A stretch of DNA of 4,414 bases from a virus (taxonomy: Duplodnaviria; Heunggongvirae; Uroviricota; Caudoviricetes). Below are positions 1 through 4,407 of the stretch, one piece after another (the stretch's first letter is position 1; each line of letters opens with the position of its first letter). Both the position numbers and the translations under genes were made by a program. The stretch lies in the IMG/VR virus record IMGVR_UViG_2700989170_000002; one strand, written 5' to 3'. The notes below the pieces were generated by a model. That model worked only from the letters and a program-made list of their open reading frames with translations, made no database searches and was not told the origin of the DNA.

Positions 1-1446
1 TTTTTTGATGTCGCGCATCATTTTTGCGAAGCGGCGCATCATGTATGCATAGCGAACGGCTGAGAGAACGTCATCGTTAAGCTTGACGATCTTCCCGTTT
101 TCATCACGGTGATAGAGGCGGAACTCCTCAAAGAATGGCTCACAGGTGTTGAATACTTTGAAGCGTCCATCGAGCATCATGTCGCGCAATTCAGTGATGC
201 CAGGCTCAACAGCATTACCGCCATCAGGCCATGTCGCATGCTCCTGCAACATCATAAAACCAGCGTCCGCGTACTGCCCTTTAAGCTGCTCACCGCCGCC
301 CTTCTCGTGCTGGTTTCCGTCATGAGGCCATGCGGTTGGCACTTTATGCGCCCAAGATTTAACGGCTCCCCACGCCTGAACGGCTGTTTTTTCTTTCGCC
401 TTCCACACGCGTGAAACGTAGATTGTGTCTGCGTCCTTATCCCACCAAAGCTGAACCTGCGCCTGCGGGTGATCCCATCCGAAATCCATACCGCCAATTA
501 CGTAAAAGTGATCAGGGCACTCGAACGGCTGACACTTAATCGTCTCTTCCGGTATCTGGAAGATTCGCCCGCTACCCATCGTAGGAATACCGCGAGCACG
601 CGCCTCTCTCTCATGCTCAGGATAGGATGCGATGATTTGCTCTTTCTGCTCGTCGGTGTAGTGCTCAGCGTCATAGATGGTCATGTTGACCACTTTCTGC
701 GACTTGCTGGGATTCTTCAGGAACTTGGTAACAACGTCAGACATCCCCATCAGCGGGGTAAACGTCAGAATTGAGAATTGCCCGTATTTGTTGGTACGGG
801 TAAGCCCTTCGCCATAAATGCTGTATGGTGGTTCTTCGTCAAACCACACACCGTGGATTGTGTCACCCTGCCAGCGAGCACGGCCTTGCGAGTATGGTTT
901 GAAGTAGCAGATTGAAATGCCATCTTCAACGCCATCAGCCGTGTGATGCTTAACCAGAAGATGATCAACAAGGTTCGGAAAGAAAGGAGACTTCTTCCAG
1001 CTAATGATGTCTTCTTTAGGTATGGAACCGTAGCCTGGCTCATCATTCTCTTCGATACGACCACACAGGATGCGTTGAGTCGTTTTGGTTACAGTTTCGT
1101 TTGTCTCGCCGCCAATCCAGAAGACAACAGGTTCATAGAAACGCTTACCTTTCCACTCACCGCCATATTTACCATCAGCAGGATAGCCTTTTGTGCCCGG
1201 ATAACGCCCGGTAAGGTGAAACGCGACTTCAGCAGCACCAGTAAATGACTTACCAAGCTGGTTACCAGCCATAAAACATCGCTCTGGATAGTCATGCCCG
1301 GCGTCGATGAACTCACGCTGTTTGCTGTATGGCGTAAATTCATATAGCAGGTGTGTGTTCCGGTAGTTCTCTTCTTCTTCGAGTAGCTCGAGCAATTCGA
1401 TTTGCTCTTCATCGCTCAGGTTATCAAGAATCGCGTCCAGTTCCAC
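1..1446 (-). CDS. Phage terminase large subunit (TerL); N-terminal 482 codons in window, C-terminal end lies beyond position 1
   Basis: Hand translation of the minus strand from GTG at 1446-1444 gives an unbroken frame to position 1: [102 protein letters not shown]...[16 protein letters not shown]...[17 protein letters not shown]...[20 protein letters not shown]. It has a Walker A-like motif AGNQLGKS (about codons 60-67), a Walker B-like VWFDEEPP, and an Asp-containing IGGMDFGWD segment that fits a C-terminal RNaseH-like nuclease domain. An AGGAG Shine-Dalgarno lies about 10 nt upstream of the GTG. It is missing from the ORF track because it has a GTG start and no stop inside the window; the track ORFs at 109-414, 469-774, 943-1248 (+) and 252-497, 765-1064, 1089-1412 (-) are alternative-frame or antisense artefacts of this gene. 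The exact start codon is less certain than the gene call. Confidence 0.88.
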
Positions 1447-1918
1447 GGTTGAATAGCTCCTTGATACGAGAGCGCCGCTTATCGCGATCTCCCTTATCAG
1501 GTGTCACGTCTTCAACTTGCGACTGCTCTTTGAGGCCCAAATCACGGGCGATGATGTTAGCGTTGAGAAGGTCAGCGGCTGCGCCAGAGAACTTCTGGTC
1601 GTAGATGATGTCTTCCGCTCGTGATGTGACGTCAGAAAAACCTTCCATTGACCGGAAGGTTCCCCATGTTTGCCTGGTGATATCAAGGAAGGTACACAAT
1701 CCTGAAATAGTCATGGCTCGCATCTTAGGGACATTAGCCTTAATTATTTCTCCCTGATATGAAAATACCTTACCCTCCCATAGCGGGTTATCATCAGCCC
1801 ACTCGAAGTATTCACAACAAGCAGCCCACAGCGCCTCAGGCGATTCGAATTTAGGGTTTCGCCCATGACTACTGCGGGCCTCCCAAAATCGGTTGCCCTT
1901 TGGTGCTGCCATATTCAT
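1424..1918 (-). CDS. Phage terminase small subunit (TerS), putative
   Basis: A 164-aa ORF lies immediately upstream of TerL, and its stop (1426-1424) overlaps the TerL start by about 23 nt, the usual terS-terL coupling. The N-terminus is basic ([31 protein letters not shown]...), as expected for a DNA-recognition region, and the C-terminal tail is charged. Start could be the ATG at 1918 or 1912. The assignment rests on position, size and composition, not on a verified homology search. Confidence 0.7.
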
Positions 1919-1935
1919 CTCACTTAATCGTTATT

Positions 1936-2115
1936 TCAGGTTAAGGACTCTTTCGCGCCTTCAATCAGTGACTGCTTCAGCAATTCGAGTGTACCAATCG
2001 CCTCGCATAAACTGATTTCACCATCATAATCATGAATAACGCTTTCAAGCCGCTCGTATAGCTCTTGAGTAATTGGGAATTTCTTCTCCTTACCCAAATT
2101 GATTACGCGGCTCAC
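1936..2115 (-). CDS. Small hypothetical protein (59 aa), GTG start, translationally coupled to the upstream 80-aa ORF
   Basis: Not in the ORF track. GTG at 2115-2113 follows a GGAG Shine-Dalgarno at 2125-2122 with a 6-nt spacer, and sits 1 nt past the TGA of the upstream ORF. Translation: VSRVINLGKEKKFPITQELYERLESVIHDYDGEISLCEAIGTLELLKQSLIEGAKESLT, stop TGA at 1938-1936. The frame is closed upstream by a TAG at 2142-2140. Composition is protein-like and probably helical. It ends about 20 nt before the TerS start. Confidence 0.4.
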   Translation of the reverse strand: MSRVINLGKEKKFPITQELYERLESVIHDYDGEISLCEAIGTLELLKQSLIEGAKESLT

Positions 2116-2116
2116 A

Positions 2117-2359
2117 TCATGCTCCGGTAGTAAACAGGTCTAACGCTTCCTTCGATTTACGCACCGCTTCGATAGTTCGGGTCGTGATATCTGAATTAGC
2201 GCCACCTGACTGGAAGTGAATTTTGAATAGCTCAAGCTTCAGCTCGTCAGTGCCAATGAATTGAAATGCTTCTTCTGCGGCTGCGTTCTGGTTCATGACC
2301 AGTTTGTAAATCTCTAACTGGAATTTCTGTTCTTCAGTCATGGGAATAATCTCTGCCAT
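2117..2359 (-). CDS. Small hypothetical phage protein (80 aa)
   Basis: ATG at 2359 is preceded by GGAG with a 6-nt spacer (minus-strand sequence ACGGAGCCAACAATG). Protein: MAEIIPMTEEQKFQLEIYKLVMNQNAAAEEAFQFIGTDELKLELFKIHFQSGGANSDITTRTIEAVRKSKEALDLFTTGA. No motif recognised. GC content is similar to the terminase genes. Confidence 0.55.
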   Translation of the reverse strand: MAEIIPMTEEQKFQLEIYKLVMNQNAAAEEAFQFIGTDELKLELFKIHFQSGGANSDITTRTIEAVRKSKEALDLFTTGA

Positions 2360-2428
2360 TGTTGGCTCCGTTTATCCGTTAAAAGGGATATCAGTTAAGT
2401 TATCCCGTGTAGGGTATAAGCCATTGTC

Positions 2429-2451
2429 GAGACCACTCATTGAATGGTCTC
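2429..2451. repeat. Perfect 7-bp inverted repeat (GAGACCA / TGGTCTC) with a 9-nt spacer in the non-coding spacer
   Basis: Plus strand 2429-2435 GAGACCA and 2445-2451 TGGTCTC are exact reverse complements. No U-tract follows on either strand, so this is not a canonical terminator; it could be a protein-binding site or an RNA hairpin. Confidence 0.35.
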
Positions 2452-2607
2452 TGCAATAACCGATGTCTTTCCATCAGTCCGCCACCACAAAGAATCTTTT
2501 TTTGCCATAAGGCAGGAGGTTCATCTTTCAGTGGCTGCCAGTGTTATTTCCCCACTTACTGGCTTGGGTTGTTTCGCTGTACTGCCGTTAATTAGTGAGT
2601 CCGGGGA

Positions 2608-3093
2608 TTATTTCAGTTCGTTACCAGGCATTTCTTTTAGCTCTTTCAAATGACAACGATTGAGGCTAAACCACTCCCCGTGCGACCTATAGTTGTAATA
2701 TTTTTGGTGCAATTTGGTTTCAAGCTCTCTATCGGCCGGAATCTTTGCAATTAGATTTAGCTTCCCACCACTCATGCGAGATATCTCTGAAATTCGTTTA
2801 TTAACCCTGCGACTAAACCCTATTTTTGTTAGCCCACTATCTTCAGCATGCAGAACGTACACATATGATTTTTGCGAAGCACTGGGTGCGACTTTGTTGT
2901 AATTAATCATGTCAAACATAAAGCCTTGCTTTAGCAAAGTTTCAAAAAAGATAGAATTAACACACCCATTCCTTCTCAGCTCTGCACTTAGCTTGTCAAT
3001 TTCCTCTATGATGTCGCCAGACCCCTTTCCACTTATAAGAAAATCTTGGTACATGCGACCAATTCTTGAGGTAATTTCAACAAAGTTATTCAT
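2608..3093 (-). CDS. T5orf172/MUG113-family (GIY-YIG-like) domain protein, 161 aa; accessory gene of unknown function
   Basis: ATG at 3093 with an AAAGG Shine-Dalgarno-like sequence about 8 nt upstream. The C-terminal half (about codons 77-145, nt ~2659-2865) carries the motif order YVYVL...KIGFS...RRVNKR...GEWF, which matches the GIY-like / (Y/K)IG / conserved Arg / GEWF pattern of the T5orf172 branch of the GIY-YIG superfamily. The N-terminal ~75 aa have no recognised motif. The gene lies in a stretch of about 37% GC, against about 50% GC in the terminase genes. Confidence 0.7.
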   Translation of the reverse strand: MNNFVEITSRIGRMYQDFLISGKGSGDIIEEIDKLSAELRRNGCVNSIFFETLLKQGFMFDMINYNKVAPSASQKSYVYVLHAEDSGLTKIGFSRRVNKRISEISRMSGGKLNLIAKIPADRELETKLHQKYYNYRSHGEWFSLNRCHLKELKEMPGNELK

Positions 3094-3239
3094 AGCGTTT
3101 ACCTTTTAGAAAGATGAGCCTGTTCGCACAGAAAAGCCGCCCCCGAGATGGTCGCCACCATATACGGCAATTCTCAGGCTCAGCTTTCTGAAAGACTCGG
3201 GATTGTTACGCGCTGCGATGCGCGGTTTACTGCAGATGT

Positions 3240-3263
3240 AAAAAAGCCCCGCAAATGCGAGGC
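3240..3263 (-). terminator. Rho-independent (intrinsic) terminator on the minus strand
   Basis: Minus strand reads GCCTCGC-ATTT-GCGGGGC-TTTTTT: a 7-bp GC-rich stem (6 Watson-Crick pairs plus one G-U), a 4-nt loop and a run of six U. On the plus strand the hairpin is followed by TAAATCC, so it would work on the minus strand only. Confidence 0.6.
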
Positions 3264-3344
3264 TAAATCCTGGTATTTGTAATGACTGGCTCTTATCTCA
3301 ACGCAGCCCCTTACCGCGCGCCAGATGCTCAATATCAAGCATCA

Positions 3345-3633
3345 NNNNNNNNNNNNNNNNNNNNNNNNNNNNNNNNNNNNNNNNNNNNNNNNNNNNNNNN
3401 NNNNNNNNNNNNNNNNNNNNNNNNNNNNNNNNNNNNNNNNNNNNNNNNNNNNNNNNNNNNNNNNNNNNNNNNNNNNNNNNNNNNNNNNNNNNNNNNNNNN
3501 NNNNNNNNNNNNNNNNNNNNNNNNNNNNNNNNNNNNNNNNNNNNNNNNNNNNNNNNNNNNNNNNNNNNNNNNNNNNNNNNNNNNNNNNNNNNNNNNNNNN
3601 NNNNNNNNNNNNNNNNNNNNNNNNNNNNNNNNN
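3345..3633. other. Run of 289 N (assembly gap or masked sequence)
   Basis: The sequence shows N at every position from 3345 to 3633. The run removes the 3' portions of Rz and Rz1 and any sequence between them and position 3344. All ORF-track entries that span it (3282-3785, 3298-3762, 3325-3723, 3335-3934) are artefacts of translating N as X. Confidence 0.99.
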
Positions 3634-3735
3634 TGCTGGCTCCGGTCGTTGACTTTGCACAGGTGGCGGCGACTTGCAGGCGCTTACGCCCAGCAGAAAC
3701 ATCAGCACGGAGACTTTCGATAGTCGCGTTAGCAT
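3634..3735 (-). CDS. Rz1: o-spanin Rz1 (outer-membrane lipoprotein spanin), 5' part only; 3' end lost in the N-gap
   Basis: ATG at 3735-3733 is preceded by AAGGAG (3748-3743) with a 7-nt spacer. It lies in the +1 frame inside Rz. Visible product: [34 protein letters not shown], a signal peptide with lipobox (VSAC) followed by a Pro-rich segment, as in lambda Rz1. The upstream ATG at 3762 has no Shine-Dalgarno and is less likely. Confidence 0.8.
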
Positions 3736-3934
3736 CAGCAAGCTCCTTTGTATATCTGGCATCGAGTTCTGCTACATCACGTTGACGCTTCTGCATGTCA
3801 GCAATTGTGGATGCGGCCTTATCGCGCTGCTCTTTGTAGGCGATGGCGTTATCACGGTAGTGATTAACAGCCCATGACAGGCAAACGATGATGCAGATAA
3901 CCAGAGCGGAGATAATCGCGGTTACTTTGCTCAT
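3634..3934 (-). CDS. Rz: i-spanin Rz (inner-membrane spanin), N-terminal 100 codons visible; 3' end lost in the N-gap
   Basis: ATG at 3934-3932 overlaps the R stop as ATGA. Product [100 protein letters not shown]... is near-identical at the N-terminus to lambda Rz (N-terminal transmembrane domain, then a coiled-coil periplasmic region). By analogy with lambda Rz (153 aa) the true stop should fall near 3470-3480 inside the gap; the track's 199-aa length is an artefact. Confidence 0.9.
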
Positions 3935-4407
3935 ACCTCAATCTCTCTGACCGTTCCGCCTGCCTCTTTGAATTTTGCAATCAGGCTGTCAGCCTTATGC
4001 TCGAACTGACCATAACCAGCGCCAGGCAGTGAAGCCCAGATATTGCTGCAACGGTCGATAGCCTGACGAATATCACCGCGATCAATCATCGGTAAAGCGC
4101 CACGCTCTTTAATCTGTTGCAGTGCCACAGCGTCCTGGCTTTTCGGAGAGAAGTCTTTCAGGCCAAGCTGCTTACGGTAGGCATCCCACCAACGGGAAAG
4201 AAGCTGGTAGCGTCCGGCGGCTGTTGATTTGAGTTTCGGATTTAGCGTGACAAGTTTGCGAGGGTGATCAGAGTAATCAGTGAATAGCTCTCCGCCAACA
4301 ATGACGTCATAACCATGATTTCTGGTTTTTTGACGTCCGTTATCAGTTCCCTCTGACCACGCCAGCATATCGAGGAACGCCTTACGTTGATTATTGATTT
4401 CCACCAT
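3931..4407 (-). CDS. R: Endolysin, lambda R-type lytic transglycosylase
   Basis: The 158-aa product [62 protein letters not shown]... is near-identical to phage lambda R, including the catalytic Glu in the LAWSEGTD motif. A TAG at 4413-4411 just upstream is probably the stop of a holin gene lying outside the window. Confidence 0.95.

What the first reader, a model, noticed from the sequence alone, without database searches (positions are those of the whole stretch)
3240..3263. Intrinsic terminator inside the late operon, between lysis genes and the accessory gene
A textbook GC-stem plus U6 terminator sits on the coding strand of the late transcript, between the lysis cassette and the T5orf172 gene. 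Established knowledge: lambdoid late transcription is read through terminators by Q-modified RNA polymerase. Inference: in a lysogen without Q activity, this terminator would insulate the accessory block from upstream read-through, so the accessory gene would need its own promoter somewhere in 3094-3239.
Basis: partly seen in the sequence, partly recalled or inferred. Interest (0 to 1): 0.4.

Follow-up and report, generated by a model that had tools for sequence, protein, structure and literature searches.

The report
Known terminator after phage lysis genes
The hairpin is a genuine, conserved transcription stop signal at the end of a prophage's lysis genes that public phage records already annotate; the gene after it shows no sign of its own promoter and sits behind a highly conserved RNA hairpin that hides its ribosome-binding site.

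Summary
A 7-8 bp GC-rich hairpin plus T6 lies at 3263..3240 on the minus (coding) strand, between the lysis cassette and the T5orf172 gene, and 0 of 5,000 simulated windows contain an equal site. It is not new. The window is 99.5% identical to Salmonella phage epsilon34, whose GenBank record annotates a 24-nt 'Rho-independent terminator' at the aligned position, and phi80 and ES18 records annotate terminators at the equivalent position. Among relatives, 85 of 86 distinct sequences keep a terminator-shaped hairpin there, with 21 stem variants and compensatory changes.

The inferred promoter in 3094-3239 is not supported: the window's best sigma-70-like score is beaten or matched by 88% of shuffles, and no candidate is positionally conserved.

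That stretch is instead a near-invariant ~145-nt leader. It folds into a long hairpin (-40 kcal/mol) that pairs the Shine-Dalgarno sequence, has no Rfam match, and occurs in 505 of 5,426 complete E. coli genomes. It precedes interchangeable Rha, KilA-N, ANT, T5orf172 or HNH genes.

Best reading: the cargo is a late gene guarded by a terminator and a translational hairpin.

The parts
3240..3264 (-). Intrinsic (Rho-independent) terminator. Stem 3264..3245 (AGCCUCGC / GCGGGGCU), loop AUUU, T6 at 3245..3240.
   Evidence: epsilon34 (EU570103) annotates a 24-nt 'Rho-independent terminator' at 41071-41094, which is where the hairpin motif maps (L001 1923-1946). The stem is supported by covariation.
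3298..3345 (-). 3' end of a 50-aa ORF (epsilon34 gp67-like, phrog_11822, unknown function) that overlaps the end of Rz. The rest is hidden by the N-mask (3346-3633).
3209..3224 (-). Small GC hairpin (CGCGC-AUCGCA-GCGCG) at the start of the conserved leader.
   Evidence: helix 3; the four inner pairs are kept in nearly all sequences, the outermost in only about a quarter. Leaders that lack an adjacent terminator begin about here.
3102..3195 (-). Long imperfect leader hairpin. Its base pairs UCUUU (3195..3191) with the Shine-Dalgarno AAAGG (3106..3102).
   Evidence: Folds at -40 kcal/mol, z = -3.2, 0 of 200 shuffles as stable. Near-invariant within family 1. 11 of 33 pairs change on both sides when the P22-type sister family is added.
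2608..3093 (-). Cargo gene: a 161-aa T5orf172/MUG113 (GIY-YIG-like) protein with low GC (36-41% against about 50% in the flanks).
   Evidence: RefSeq names it 'GIY-YIG nuclease family protein'.
2372..2607 (-). Conserved 3' flank of the cargo slot, including a 22-aa homologue of P22 orf25 (2440..2372).
   Evidence: near-identical in the window, P22 and Sf101.
2117..2359 (-). DUF2560 gene (homologue of P22 orf80 and HK620 hkbM), the next gene in the late operon.
1936..2115 (-). 59-aa ORF (P22 orf59c / HK620 hkbN-like, phrog_3546).
1424..1918 (-). Small terminase subunit (P22 gp3 family).
   Evidence: PF16677, E = 8.6e-31.
1..1446 (-). Large terminase subunit. It runs off the window; the start coordinate is approximate.
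   Evidence: Synteny with HK620 and the E. coli EC6 prophage.
3931..4407 (-). Lambda-R-type endolysin.
3497..3934 (-). Rz/Rz1 spanin genes, largely N-masked. The end coordinate is inferred from the 438-nt Rz of epsilon34 and E. coli EC6.

Best explanation
The hairpin is a constitutive intrinsic terminator marking the 3' end of the lysis cassette, inside the Q-antiterminated late operon of a P22-like (Lederbergvirus-type) lambdoid prophage.

Inferred mechanism. RNA polymerase that has not been modified by Q stops here. That includes leak-through of tR' and spurious starts inside the lysis genes. Such polymerase therefore cannot enter the next gene slot, which carries potentially harmful antirepressor-like or nuclease genes (Rha, KilA-N, ANT, T5orf172, HNH). 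After induction, Q-modified polymerase reads through, so the T5orf172 gene and the terminase genes behind it are made as ordinary late genes.

The T5orf172 gene shows no sign of its own promoter. It sits behind a second, independent safeguard: a near-invariant leader of about 145 nt whose 94-nt hairpin pairs the Shine-Dalgarno sequence and so should hold translation down. Because the leader upstream and a conserved block downstream are the same in many phages, they also serve as homology arms through which the cargo gene is swapped.

Shown here: the structure, its conservation and covariation, the synteny, the lack of a promoter-like sequence, and the cargo swapping. Inferred: actual termination, Q read-through and translational repression.
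For: Terminator:
- Form and chance test.
- Curators annotate a terminator at the aligned position in epsilon34, and at the equivalent position in phi80 ('putative rightward transcription terminator' before rha) and ES18.
- 85 of 86 distinct homologous sequences have a terminator-shaped hairpin upstream of the leader core, mostly 48-55 nt away, with 21 stem variants.
- 4 of 7 stem pairs change on both sides, 97% of cells are paired, and the slid-register controls fall to 40-53% for the whole tested structure.

Late-operon setting: Q, holin, endolysin, Rz, terminator, cargo and terminase all lie on one strand, and the epsilon34 record annotates PR' and qut between Q and the holin gene.

No own promoter. 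No coding-strand terminator-like site in the gap after the cargo gene.

Leader:
- -40 kcal/mol, z = -3.2, with the Shine-Dalgarno sequence paired.
- Near-invariant across phages of Salmonella, E. coli, Klebsiella, Enterobacter and Hafnia, with partial matches in Pantoea and Citrobacter phages.
- The core is present in prophages of Yersinia, Rahnella, Pantoea, Buttiauxella and other genera.
- Covariation appears once the P22-type sister family is added: 11 of 33 pairs, 49 cells against 17.6 +/- 3.7 in shuffles, 88% paired against at most 57% when slid.

Cargo swapping at the start codon: Rha, KilA-N, ANT/KilAC, T5orf172, an unknown 198-aa protein, and genes annotated as HNH/homing endonuclease.

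Literature:
- P22 rha is described as a late-operon gene detrimental to lytic growth without IHF (PMC4936722).
- BTP1 late genes form one polycistronic operon, and Rha is not among the lysogen-expressed genes (PMC7067206).
- The roles proposed for intra-operon terminators are given in PMC8022706.
Against: - No transcript-end data exist for this element in anything I could read, so termination efficiency and Q read-through are assumed, not shown.
- The stem contains a U.G pair and is of moderate strength, so termination may be only partial. It could then serve mainly to set the ratio of lysis to downstream mRNA, or to stabilise the 3' end of the lysis mRNA.
- 3 of 19 genome loci carry the leader without an adjacent terminator, and two phages carry the sister-family leader at another place in the late operon. 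The two safeguards are therefore separable and need not work as a unit.
- Within family 1 the leader hairpin is almost invariant, so its covariation support rests mostly on one deep split between two families. Invariance at the DNA level could reflect recombination or protein binding rather than RNA structure.
- A promoter that does not resemble sigma-70 consensus, or that depends on an activator, cannot be excluded by sequence.
Confidence: 0.72

Rival explanations
1. The terminator insulates a lysogeny-expressed accessory gene (a moron), which is transcribed from its own promoter located between 3094 and 3239.
For: The cargo gene has atypically low GC (36-41%) and is present or absent among related phages, as morons are. 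Secondary promoters do exist inside P22-like late operons: four in the BTP1 capsid cluster, plus the pid promoter (PMC7067206; PMC8835761).
Against: No promoter-like site is found. The window's best score is below the shuffle mean, and nothing is positionally conserved in 74 homologues. The interval is occupied by a conserved structured leader that would lie within the transcript. There is no terminator-like site in the gap after the gene. Rha in the same slot of BTP1 is not among the lysogen-expressed genes.
Confidence: 0.1
2. The hairpin acts mainly as a partial attenuator or as a 3' stabiliser of lysis mRNA rather than as an insulator. Even Q-modified polymerase terminates in part, or the hairpin protects processed lysis transcripts from 3' exonucleases. 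Either way it sets the relative amounts of lysis and downstream messages.
For: Partial termination is one of the two roles proposed for intra-operon terminators in P22-like phages (PMC8022706). A terminator hairpin was shown to be needed for stability of the neighbouring pid transcript in P22 (PMC8835761). The stem is of moderate strength and contains a U.G pair.
Against: Nothing here separates this from insulation, and the two are compatible. The essential terminase and head genes lie downstream, so strong termination of the late transcript would be costly. By established knowledge, Q-modified polymerase resists intrinsic terminators.
Confidence: 0.13
3. The conservation reflects DNA, not RNA. 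The terminator and leader persist as a 'boundary' or 'linker' sequence that targets homologous recombination between lambdoid phages, and so allows cargo genes to be exchanged. The terminator shape is incidental or secondary.
For: The cargo slot has near-identical DNA on both sides, and unrelated genes begin exactly after the Shine-Dalgarno sequence. Terminator variants follow the upstream lysis module, while the sequence after the T-run assorts independently, so a mosaic joint lies at the terminator. The conserved boundary-sequence model for lambdoid phages has been published (Susskind & Botstein 1978 and Clark et al. 2001, as cited in PMC3233612).
Against: The terminator stem varies in sequence yet always keeps its pairing and its T-run (21 variants). 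That is selection on RNA or terminator form, not on DNA identity. The diverged P22-type leader keeps the same fold through compensatory changes. Recombination explains how the leader spreads, not why a Shine-Dalgarno-pairing hairpin is kept.
Confidence: 0.05

Closest known systems
The annotated 'Rho-independent terminator' of Salmonella phage epsilon34 (EU570103, 41071-41094), with the terminators annotated at the equivalent position in phi80 (NC_021190, 43609-43631, before rha) and ES18 (NC_006949, 45620-45642, before its Rha-like gene)
   Same: It is the same element. Over window 2400-3345, which contains the hairpin, the window is 99.5% identical to epsilon34, and the hairpin motif maps exactly to the 24-nt terminator feature in that record. 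The phi80 and ES18 features sit at the same position, after Rz/Rz1 and before the Rha-type gene.
   Different: Nothing about the terminator itself differs. The window's phage differs downstream of the DUF2560 gene, where it has P22/Sf101-type small ORF and terminase genes rather than the epsilon34 arrangement. All of these annotations are predictions; none cites a termination assay.
Terminators inside lambdoid late operons that are overridden by Q/gp23 antitermination (lambda tR', P22 t-late, and the intra-operon terminators noted in phage L)
   Same: A hairpin-plus-U-tract terminator on the coding strand downstream of PR'/qut, in an operon with a single late promoter.
   Different: tR' lies immediately after the promoter and is the regulated switch. 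This terminator lies about 2 kb downstream, after the lysis genes, and its role is not established ('their roles are not known', PMC8022706).
Morons (promoter-gene-terminator insertions in phage late operons; Juhala/Hendrix, as used in PMC2629481)
   Same: A dispensable, compositionally atypical gene placed between essential late-gene blocks, varying among related phages.
   Different: No own promoter and no own downstream terminator were found. The terminator is upstream of the gene, not after it. The gene is swapped within a fixed leader/flank frame rather than inserted with its own signals.
Long 5'-leader hairpins that occlude the ribosome-binding site in phage mRNAs, such as the lambda N-leader RNase III site (recalled from memory, not tested here)
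   Same: A long imperfect duplex in the 5' leader with the Shine-Dalgarno sequence in its base. Its size and form resemble an RNase III substrate.
   Different: No sequence relationship, and no match to any Rfam family at E <= 1. Processing and regulation are untested.

Membership tests
Intrinsic (Rho-independent) terminator | G+C-rich stem-loop of about 5-10 bp with a short loop | tested here: met
   7-8 pairs with 6 G-C pairs, a 4-nt loop and -13.6 kcal/mol.
Intrinsic (Rho-independent) terminator | U-tract directly 3' of the stem on the transcribed strand | tested here: met
   T6 at 3245..3240 on the minus strand, which is the strand of all the genes.
Intrinsic (Rho-independent) terminator | Intergenic, and far enough beyond the upstream stop codon to escape ribosome interference | tested here: met
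   The stem starts 33 nt after the stop at 3298. The distance effect is described in the abstract of PMC4824070.
Intrinsic (Rho-independent) terminator | Stem pairing kept by compensatory change in homologues | tested here: met
   21 stem variants in 85 of 86 distinct sequences. 4 of 7 pairs change on both sides and 97% of cells are paired.
Intrinsic (Rho-independent) terminator | Produces transcript 3' ends in vitro or in vivo | not testable with these tools
   No Term-seq or 3'-end data for this locus were found in the papers I read.
Q-antiterminated late-operon internal terminator | Lies downstream of a Q gene, PR' and qut in the same orientation with no intervening promoter | tested here: met
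   Outside the window, shown by synteny. epsilon34 has Q, PR' and qut, and the E. coli EC6 prophage, which is 100% identical over the 177-nt terminator-leader query, has a Q-family antiterminator.
Q-antiterminated late-operon internal terminator | Read through by Q-modified RNA polymerase but not by unmodified polymerase | not testable with these tools
   Inferred from established knowledge of lambda Q and P22 gp23.
Moron (self-contained promoter-gene-terminator cassette) | Own promoter upstream of the gene | tested here: not met
   No sigma-70-like site in 3094-3239. The best score is 6.5/12, matched or beaten by 88% of shuffles, and nothing is conserved among 74 homologues.
Moron (self-contained promoter-gene-terminator cassette) | Own terminator downstream of the gene | tested here: not met
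   No terminator-like site on the minus strand in the gap between 2608 and 2360.
Moron (self-contained promoter-gene-terminator cassette) | Atypical composition and presence/absence among related phages | tested here: met
   GC 36-41% against about 50% in the flanks. Replaced by Rha or KilA-N genes in Sf101 and HK620.
Shine-Dalgarno-sequestering 5' leader (cis translational repressor) | The Shine-Dalgarno sequence is base-paired in a stable, non-random structure | tested here: met
   AAAGG (3106..3102) pairs with UCUUU (3195..3191). The fold is -40 kcal/mol, z = -3.2, with 0 of 200 shuffles as stable.
Shine-Dalgarno-sequestering 5' leader (cis translational repressor) | Structure supported by covariation | tested here: inconclusive
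   Within family 1 there are no double-sided changes because the sequence is invariant. With the P22-type family added, 11 of 33 pairs change on both sides and none of 500 shuffles reaches the observed count of such cells, but most of the signal comes from one split between the two families.
Shine-Dalgarno-sequestering 5' leader (cis translational repressor) | Pairing lowers translation, and there is a way to relieve it | not testable with these tools
   Needs reporter fusions with disrupting and compensating mutations.
Any curated RNA family (Rfam 15) | Covariance-model match | tested here: not met
   No match at E <= 1 anywhere in the window, on either strand.

The most novel reading that the evidence does not exclude
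The terminator is one half of a widespread, unannotated two-stage safety catch. The other half is the leader of about 110-145 nt. The leader would be a new cis-regulatory RNA family: it has no Rfam match, comes in two sister types, and is present in about 9% of complete E. coli genomes and across the Enterobacterales. It would gate translation of toxic antirepressor-like or nuclease genes (Rha, KilA-N, ANT, T5orf172, HNH) by hiding the Shine-Dalgarno sequence, possibly until it is processed (for example by RNase III) or opened by a host or phage factor. This could be the missing mechanism behind the old observation that rha expression depends on the host factor IHF.
Probability: 0.35. Interest if true: 0.5.

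Novelty: already known. Interest (0 to 1): 0.22.

Why it matters
The terminator itself adds little, because curated phage records already annotate it and it fits the textbook picture of Q-antiterminated late operons. Its strict conservation at this one junction does give comparative support to the insulator idea, which the literature still lists as unproven. That support is 21 stem variants that all still pair, sitting ahead of a slot that always holds Rha-type, KilA-N-type or nuclease genes.

The more useful result is the correction. The 145 nt after the terminator look like a highly conserved, portable hairpin leader that hides the ribosome-binding site, not a promoter region. No database annotates it, yet it sits in roughly one in eleven complete E. 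coli genomes. If it proves functional, it would explain how prophages keep harmful late accessory genes silent. It would also offer a natural, exchangeable low-leak expression cassette.

Tried and rejected
- **Rfam.** A scan of the whole window at E <= 1 found nothing.
- **Leader peptide.** The window has a 20-codon ATG..TAA frame inside the leader. I rejected it: the ATG is absent in 20 of 74 homologues, and single-base indels change the frame and the stop in the others.
- **Opposite-strand ORF.** Some records annotate a 44-aa ORF here (3148-3282 on the plus strand; g341c gp63). Its length varies from 8 to 53 aa among homologues, so it is not conserved as coding.
- **IHF site.** A WATCAANNNNTTR scan with 1 mismatch gave no hit in 3094-3300, and hits across the window were at chance level.
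- **pid.** I first took the 22-aa ORF at 2440..2372 for pid, a moron with its own promoter. That was wrong. It is an orf25 homologue. pid lies on the opposite strand in a ~600-nt stretch that only P22 has and the window lacks.
- **Defence-system membership of the cargo.** There is only a marginal PADLOC hit (E = 4e-4), which I did not pursue.
- **Papers not held.** Henthorn & Friedman 1995 (rha/IHF) and the phi80/Lula genome paper could not be found under PMC ids I recalled from memory. What I say about rha regulation is therefore second-hand (PMC4936722) or from memory.
- **First chance test.** My first run demanded 8 pairs plus T6 and missed the real site. I corrected it to 7 pairs plus T6.
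- **Gifsy defence paper.** PMC12724215 turned out to be irrelevant.

Full report
**What the window is.** All the long ORFs run on the minus strand. In reading order they are:
- a lambda-R-type endolysin (4407..3931);
- Rz/Rz1, largely hidden by an N-mask at 3346-3633;
- the end of a 50-aa ORF (stop at 3298);
- the hairpin;
- a 161-aa gene (3093..2608);
- a 22-aa orf25-like ORF;
- a DUF2560 gene, a 59-aa ORF, and the small and large terminase genes.

Pfam confirms T5orf172/MUG113 for the 161-aa protein, DUF2560, and the P22 gp3-type small terminase. Over 2400-3345 the window is 99.5% identical to Salmonella phage epsilon34. The 177-nt terminator-plus-leader stretch is 100% identical to a prophage of E. 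coli strain EC6. In both relatives a Q antiterminator gene lies upstream of the holin gene on the same strand, and the epsilon34 record also annotates PR' and qut there.

**The observation.** On the minus strand the sequence reads A-GCCUCGC-AUUU-GCGGGGC-U-UUUUU-A.
- The stem is 3264..3245, the loop is 4 nt, and the T6 run is 3245..3240.
- It is the top terminator-like site in the window.
- It folds at -13.6 kcal/mol alone and at -14.6 kcal/mol (z = -3.4) in context.
- A search for at least 7 pairs, at least 6 G-C pairs, a loop of 3-8 nt and T6 returns exactly 3263..3240 on the minus strand. It returns nothing in 5,000 first-order-Markov simulations of the window.
- The opposite strand has no T-run, so the element is unidirectional.

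**It is already annotated.** The epsilon34 GenBank record carries a 24-nt regulatory feature, 'terminator; Rho-independent terminator', at 41071-41094, and the hairpin motif maps exactly onto that feature. [quoted passage not shown] The phi80 record annotates a 'putative rightward transcription terminator' between Rz and rha. The ES18 record annotates a putative terminator between Rz1 and its Rha-like gene. These are curator predictions, and I found no termination assay for any of them.

**Conservation.** The 207 nt from the cargo start codon to beyond the hairpin match 165 phage records, from hosts including Salmonella, Escherichia, Klebsiella, Enterobacter, Hafnia, Citrobacter and Pantoea.
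- Of 86 distinct sequences, 85 have a terminator-shaped hairpin upstream of the core. In most it ends 48-55 nt before the core. There are 21 different stem versions, for example CUCGC/GCGGG, CUCAC/GUGGG, CUGAC/GUCGG, AGCCAGC/GCUGGCU and AGCCCGG/CCGGGCU.
- On a 52-sequence alignment, 4 of the 7 stem pairs change on both sides and 97% of cells are paired. Sliding the partners by 1-3 columns drops pairing for the whole tested structure to 40-53%.

This is the signature of selection for the hairpin itself.

The stem variant travels with the upstream lysis module, while the sequence after the T-run assorts independently. So the terminator sits on a mosaic joint, yet whichever modules meet there, a terminator is present.

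- The consensus scan finds no minus-strand promoter-like site anywhere in the window.
- My own scoring of -35/-10 hexamers with 15-19 nt spacers gives the window a best of 6.5 out of 12. The mean for shuffles is 7.3, and 88% of shuffles do at least as well.
- Only 5 of 74 distinct homologues reach 8, and no candidate keeps a fixed position across them.
- There is also no terminator-like site on the coding strand in the gap between the cargo gene and the DUF2560 gene. The gene therefore lacks both signals of a classical moron.
- In the published transcriptome of the P22-like prophage BTP1, which has Rha in this slot, the genes highly expressed in lysogens are bstA, cI, pid, gtrC and gtrA. The late genes are described as one large polycistronic operon (PMC7067206).

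The inference does not follow from the terminator. A gene downstream of an intra-operon terminator can simply be a late gene reached by Q-modified polymerase.

**What 3094-3239 actually is.** In Sf101 (Rha cargo) and HK620 (KilA-N cargo) the sequence from the hairpin to the Shine-Dalgarno sequence is conserved, and the unrelated coding sequences begin straight after it. Across the alignment the core from GAGUCUUUCAG to CAGGCUCA is almost invariant.

It folds into a small GC hairpin (3224..3209) and a 94-nt imperfect hairpin (3195..3102). The base of the long hairpin pairs UCUUU with the Shine-Dalgarno AAAGG (3106..3102). That fold is -40 kcal/mol, z = -3.2, and none of 200 shuffles is as stable.

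Within this family the stem shows only G-U wobble changes, so invariance prevents a covariation test. P22 itself carries a diverged sister version with the same three-part architecture:
- a terminator (GCCUCGC-AGAU-GCGGGGC-GUUUUUG);
- the small GC hairpin;
- a long hairpin with different arm sequences.

That sister family occurs in 75 phage records, including BTP1, ES18, Stx2 phage 1717 and HK544.

Aligning 14 type-1 and 6 type-2 leaders gives 11 of 33 pairs with changes on both sides. That is 49 such cells against 17.6 +/- 3.7 in shuffles, with 0 of 500 shuffles reaching it. Pairing is 88%, against at most 57% in slid registers. The caveat is that most of this signal comes from a single deep split between the two families, plus a few changes within type 2.

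The element has no match in Rfam at E <= 1 and carries no annotation in RefSeq E. coli genomes, although 505 of 5,426 complete genomes contain it. The core also occurs in prophages of Yersinia, Rahnella, Rouxiella, Pantoea, Buttiauxella, Lelliottia, Pluralibacter, Shimwellia and other genera.

**The cargo slot.** Among 125 loci, the ORF after the leader falls into at least nine sequence clusters:
- Rha with or without an ORF11CD3 domain (63 and 11 loci);
- an unknown 198-aa protein (12);
- T5orf172/MUG113 (10, 7 and 1);
- KilA-N (8, 7 and 1);
- ANT/KilAC (4).

In Klebsiella phage RothC and Escherichia phage CharmingMan the type-2 leader sits between Q and the holin gene, in front of genes annotated as homing or HNH endonuclease. 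All of these are antirepressor-like DNA-binding or nuclease modules. Rha is reported to block phage growth in hosts lacking IHF (PMC4936722). The block downstream of the slot (window ~2372-2607) is also near-identical in the window, P22 and Sf101. The cargo therefore lies between two homology arms, which fits exchange by homologous recombination at conserved boundary sequences (model cited in PMC3233612).

**Most likely mechanism.**
- Shown: a conserved, structurally selected terminator at the end of the lysis cassette; no promoter-like sequence after it; and a conserved hairpin leader that occludes the Shine-Dalgarno sequence, ahead of interchangeable and potentially harmful genes.
- Inferred: unmodified polymerase stops at the terminator, which keeps the cargo silent in lysogens. 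Q-modified polymerase reads through after induction, and the leader hairpin then limits or times translation.

This agrees with one of the two roles that the phage L authors propose for intra-operon terminators, while stating that 'their roles are not known' (PMC8022706). Their other proposal, partial termination that tunes downstream mRNA, cannot be excluded. Neither can a role in stabilising the lysis mRNA, like the role shown for the pid terminator nearby in P22 (PMC8835761). Three of 19 genome loci have the leader without an adjacent terminator, so the two elements are separable.

**Verdict.** It is an ordinary member of a known class. The by-product worth recording is the unannotated, widely distributed leader and its exchangeable cargo slot.

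Noticed in passing
window 3094-3238 (minus strand); long hairpin 3195..3102: A near-invariant leader of about 145 nt precedes the cargo gene. Its 94-nt hairpin pairs the Shine-Dalgarno sequence. It has no Rfam match and no RefSeq annotation, yet it is present in 505 of 5,426 complete E. coli genomes and in prophages of many Enterobacterales genera.
   Followed up: yes
L130 (P22, NC_002371) 39575-39650: The annotated start of P22 rha (GTG at 39575) lies inside the conserved leader hairpin. ATG at 39645, preceded by AAGAAGG and followed by MNELIANHDFDFRQL (which resembles other Rha N-termini), looks like the true start. If so, orf201 is probably about 23 codons too long.
   Followed up: partly
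window 2372-2607 (minus strand): The block downstream of the cargo gene is near-identical in the window, P22 and Sf101 and contains a 22-aa homologue of P22 orf25 (2440..2372). The window lacks the ~600-nt P22 stretch that carries the opposite-strand pid moron.
   Followed up: partly
L152 (Klebsiella phage RothC) 701-846; L154 (Escherichia phage CharmingMan) 701-825: The P22-type leader also occurs at a different place in the late operon, between Q (or the tRNA genes) and the holin gene, in front of a gene annotated as HNH or homing endonuclease. The leader therefore moves independently of the lysis-terminase junction.
   Followed up: no
L138, L140, L143 (Buttiauxella, Intestinirhabdus, Dryocola genomes): These are copies of the leader with no terminator-shaped hairpin directly upstream. 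The similarity starts at the small GCGC hairpin, which suggests that is the true 5' edge of the leader unit.
   Followed up: no
window 3346-3633: This run of N masks most of Rz/Rz1 and the start of the 50-aa gp67-like ORF. The content was inferred from epsilon34 (L001) and E. coli EC6 (L131).
   Followed up: partly
window 3298-3345 and L001 1981-2133: A 50-aa ORF (phrog_11822, unknown function) overlaps the end of Rz and ends 33 nt before the terminator. It is present only in the epsilon34/Sf6/Sf101-type lysis modules. phi80, Stx and Klebsiella phages have the terminator directly after Rz.
   Followed up: no
window 3137-3166 (minus strand), inside the long hairpin: An inner stem GCCG...CGGC is followed by UUUUCUGUG and resembles a second, weak terminator or pause site. 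The consensus scan did not flag it.
   Followed up: no
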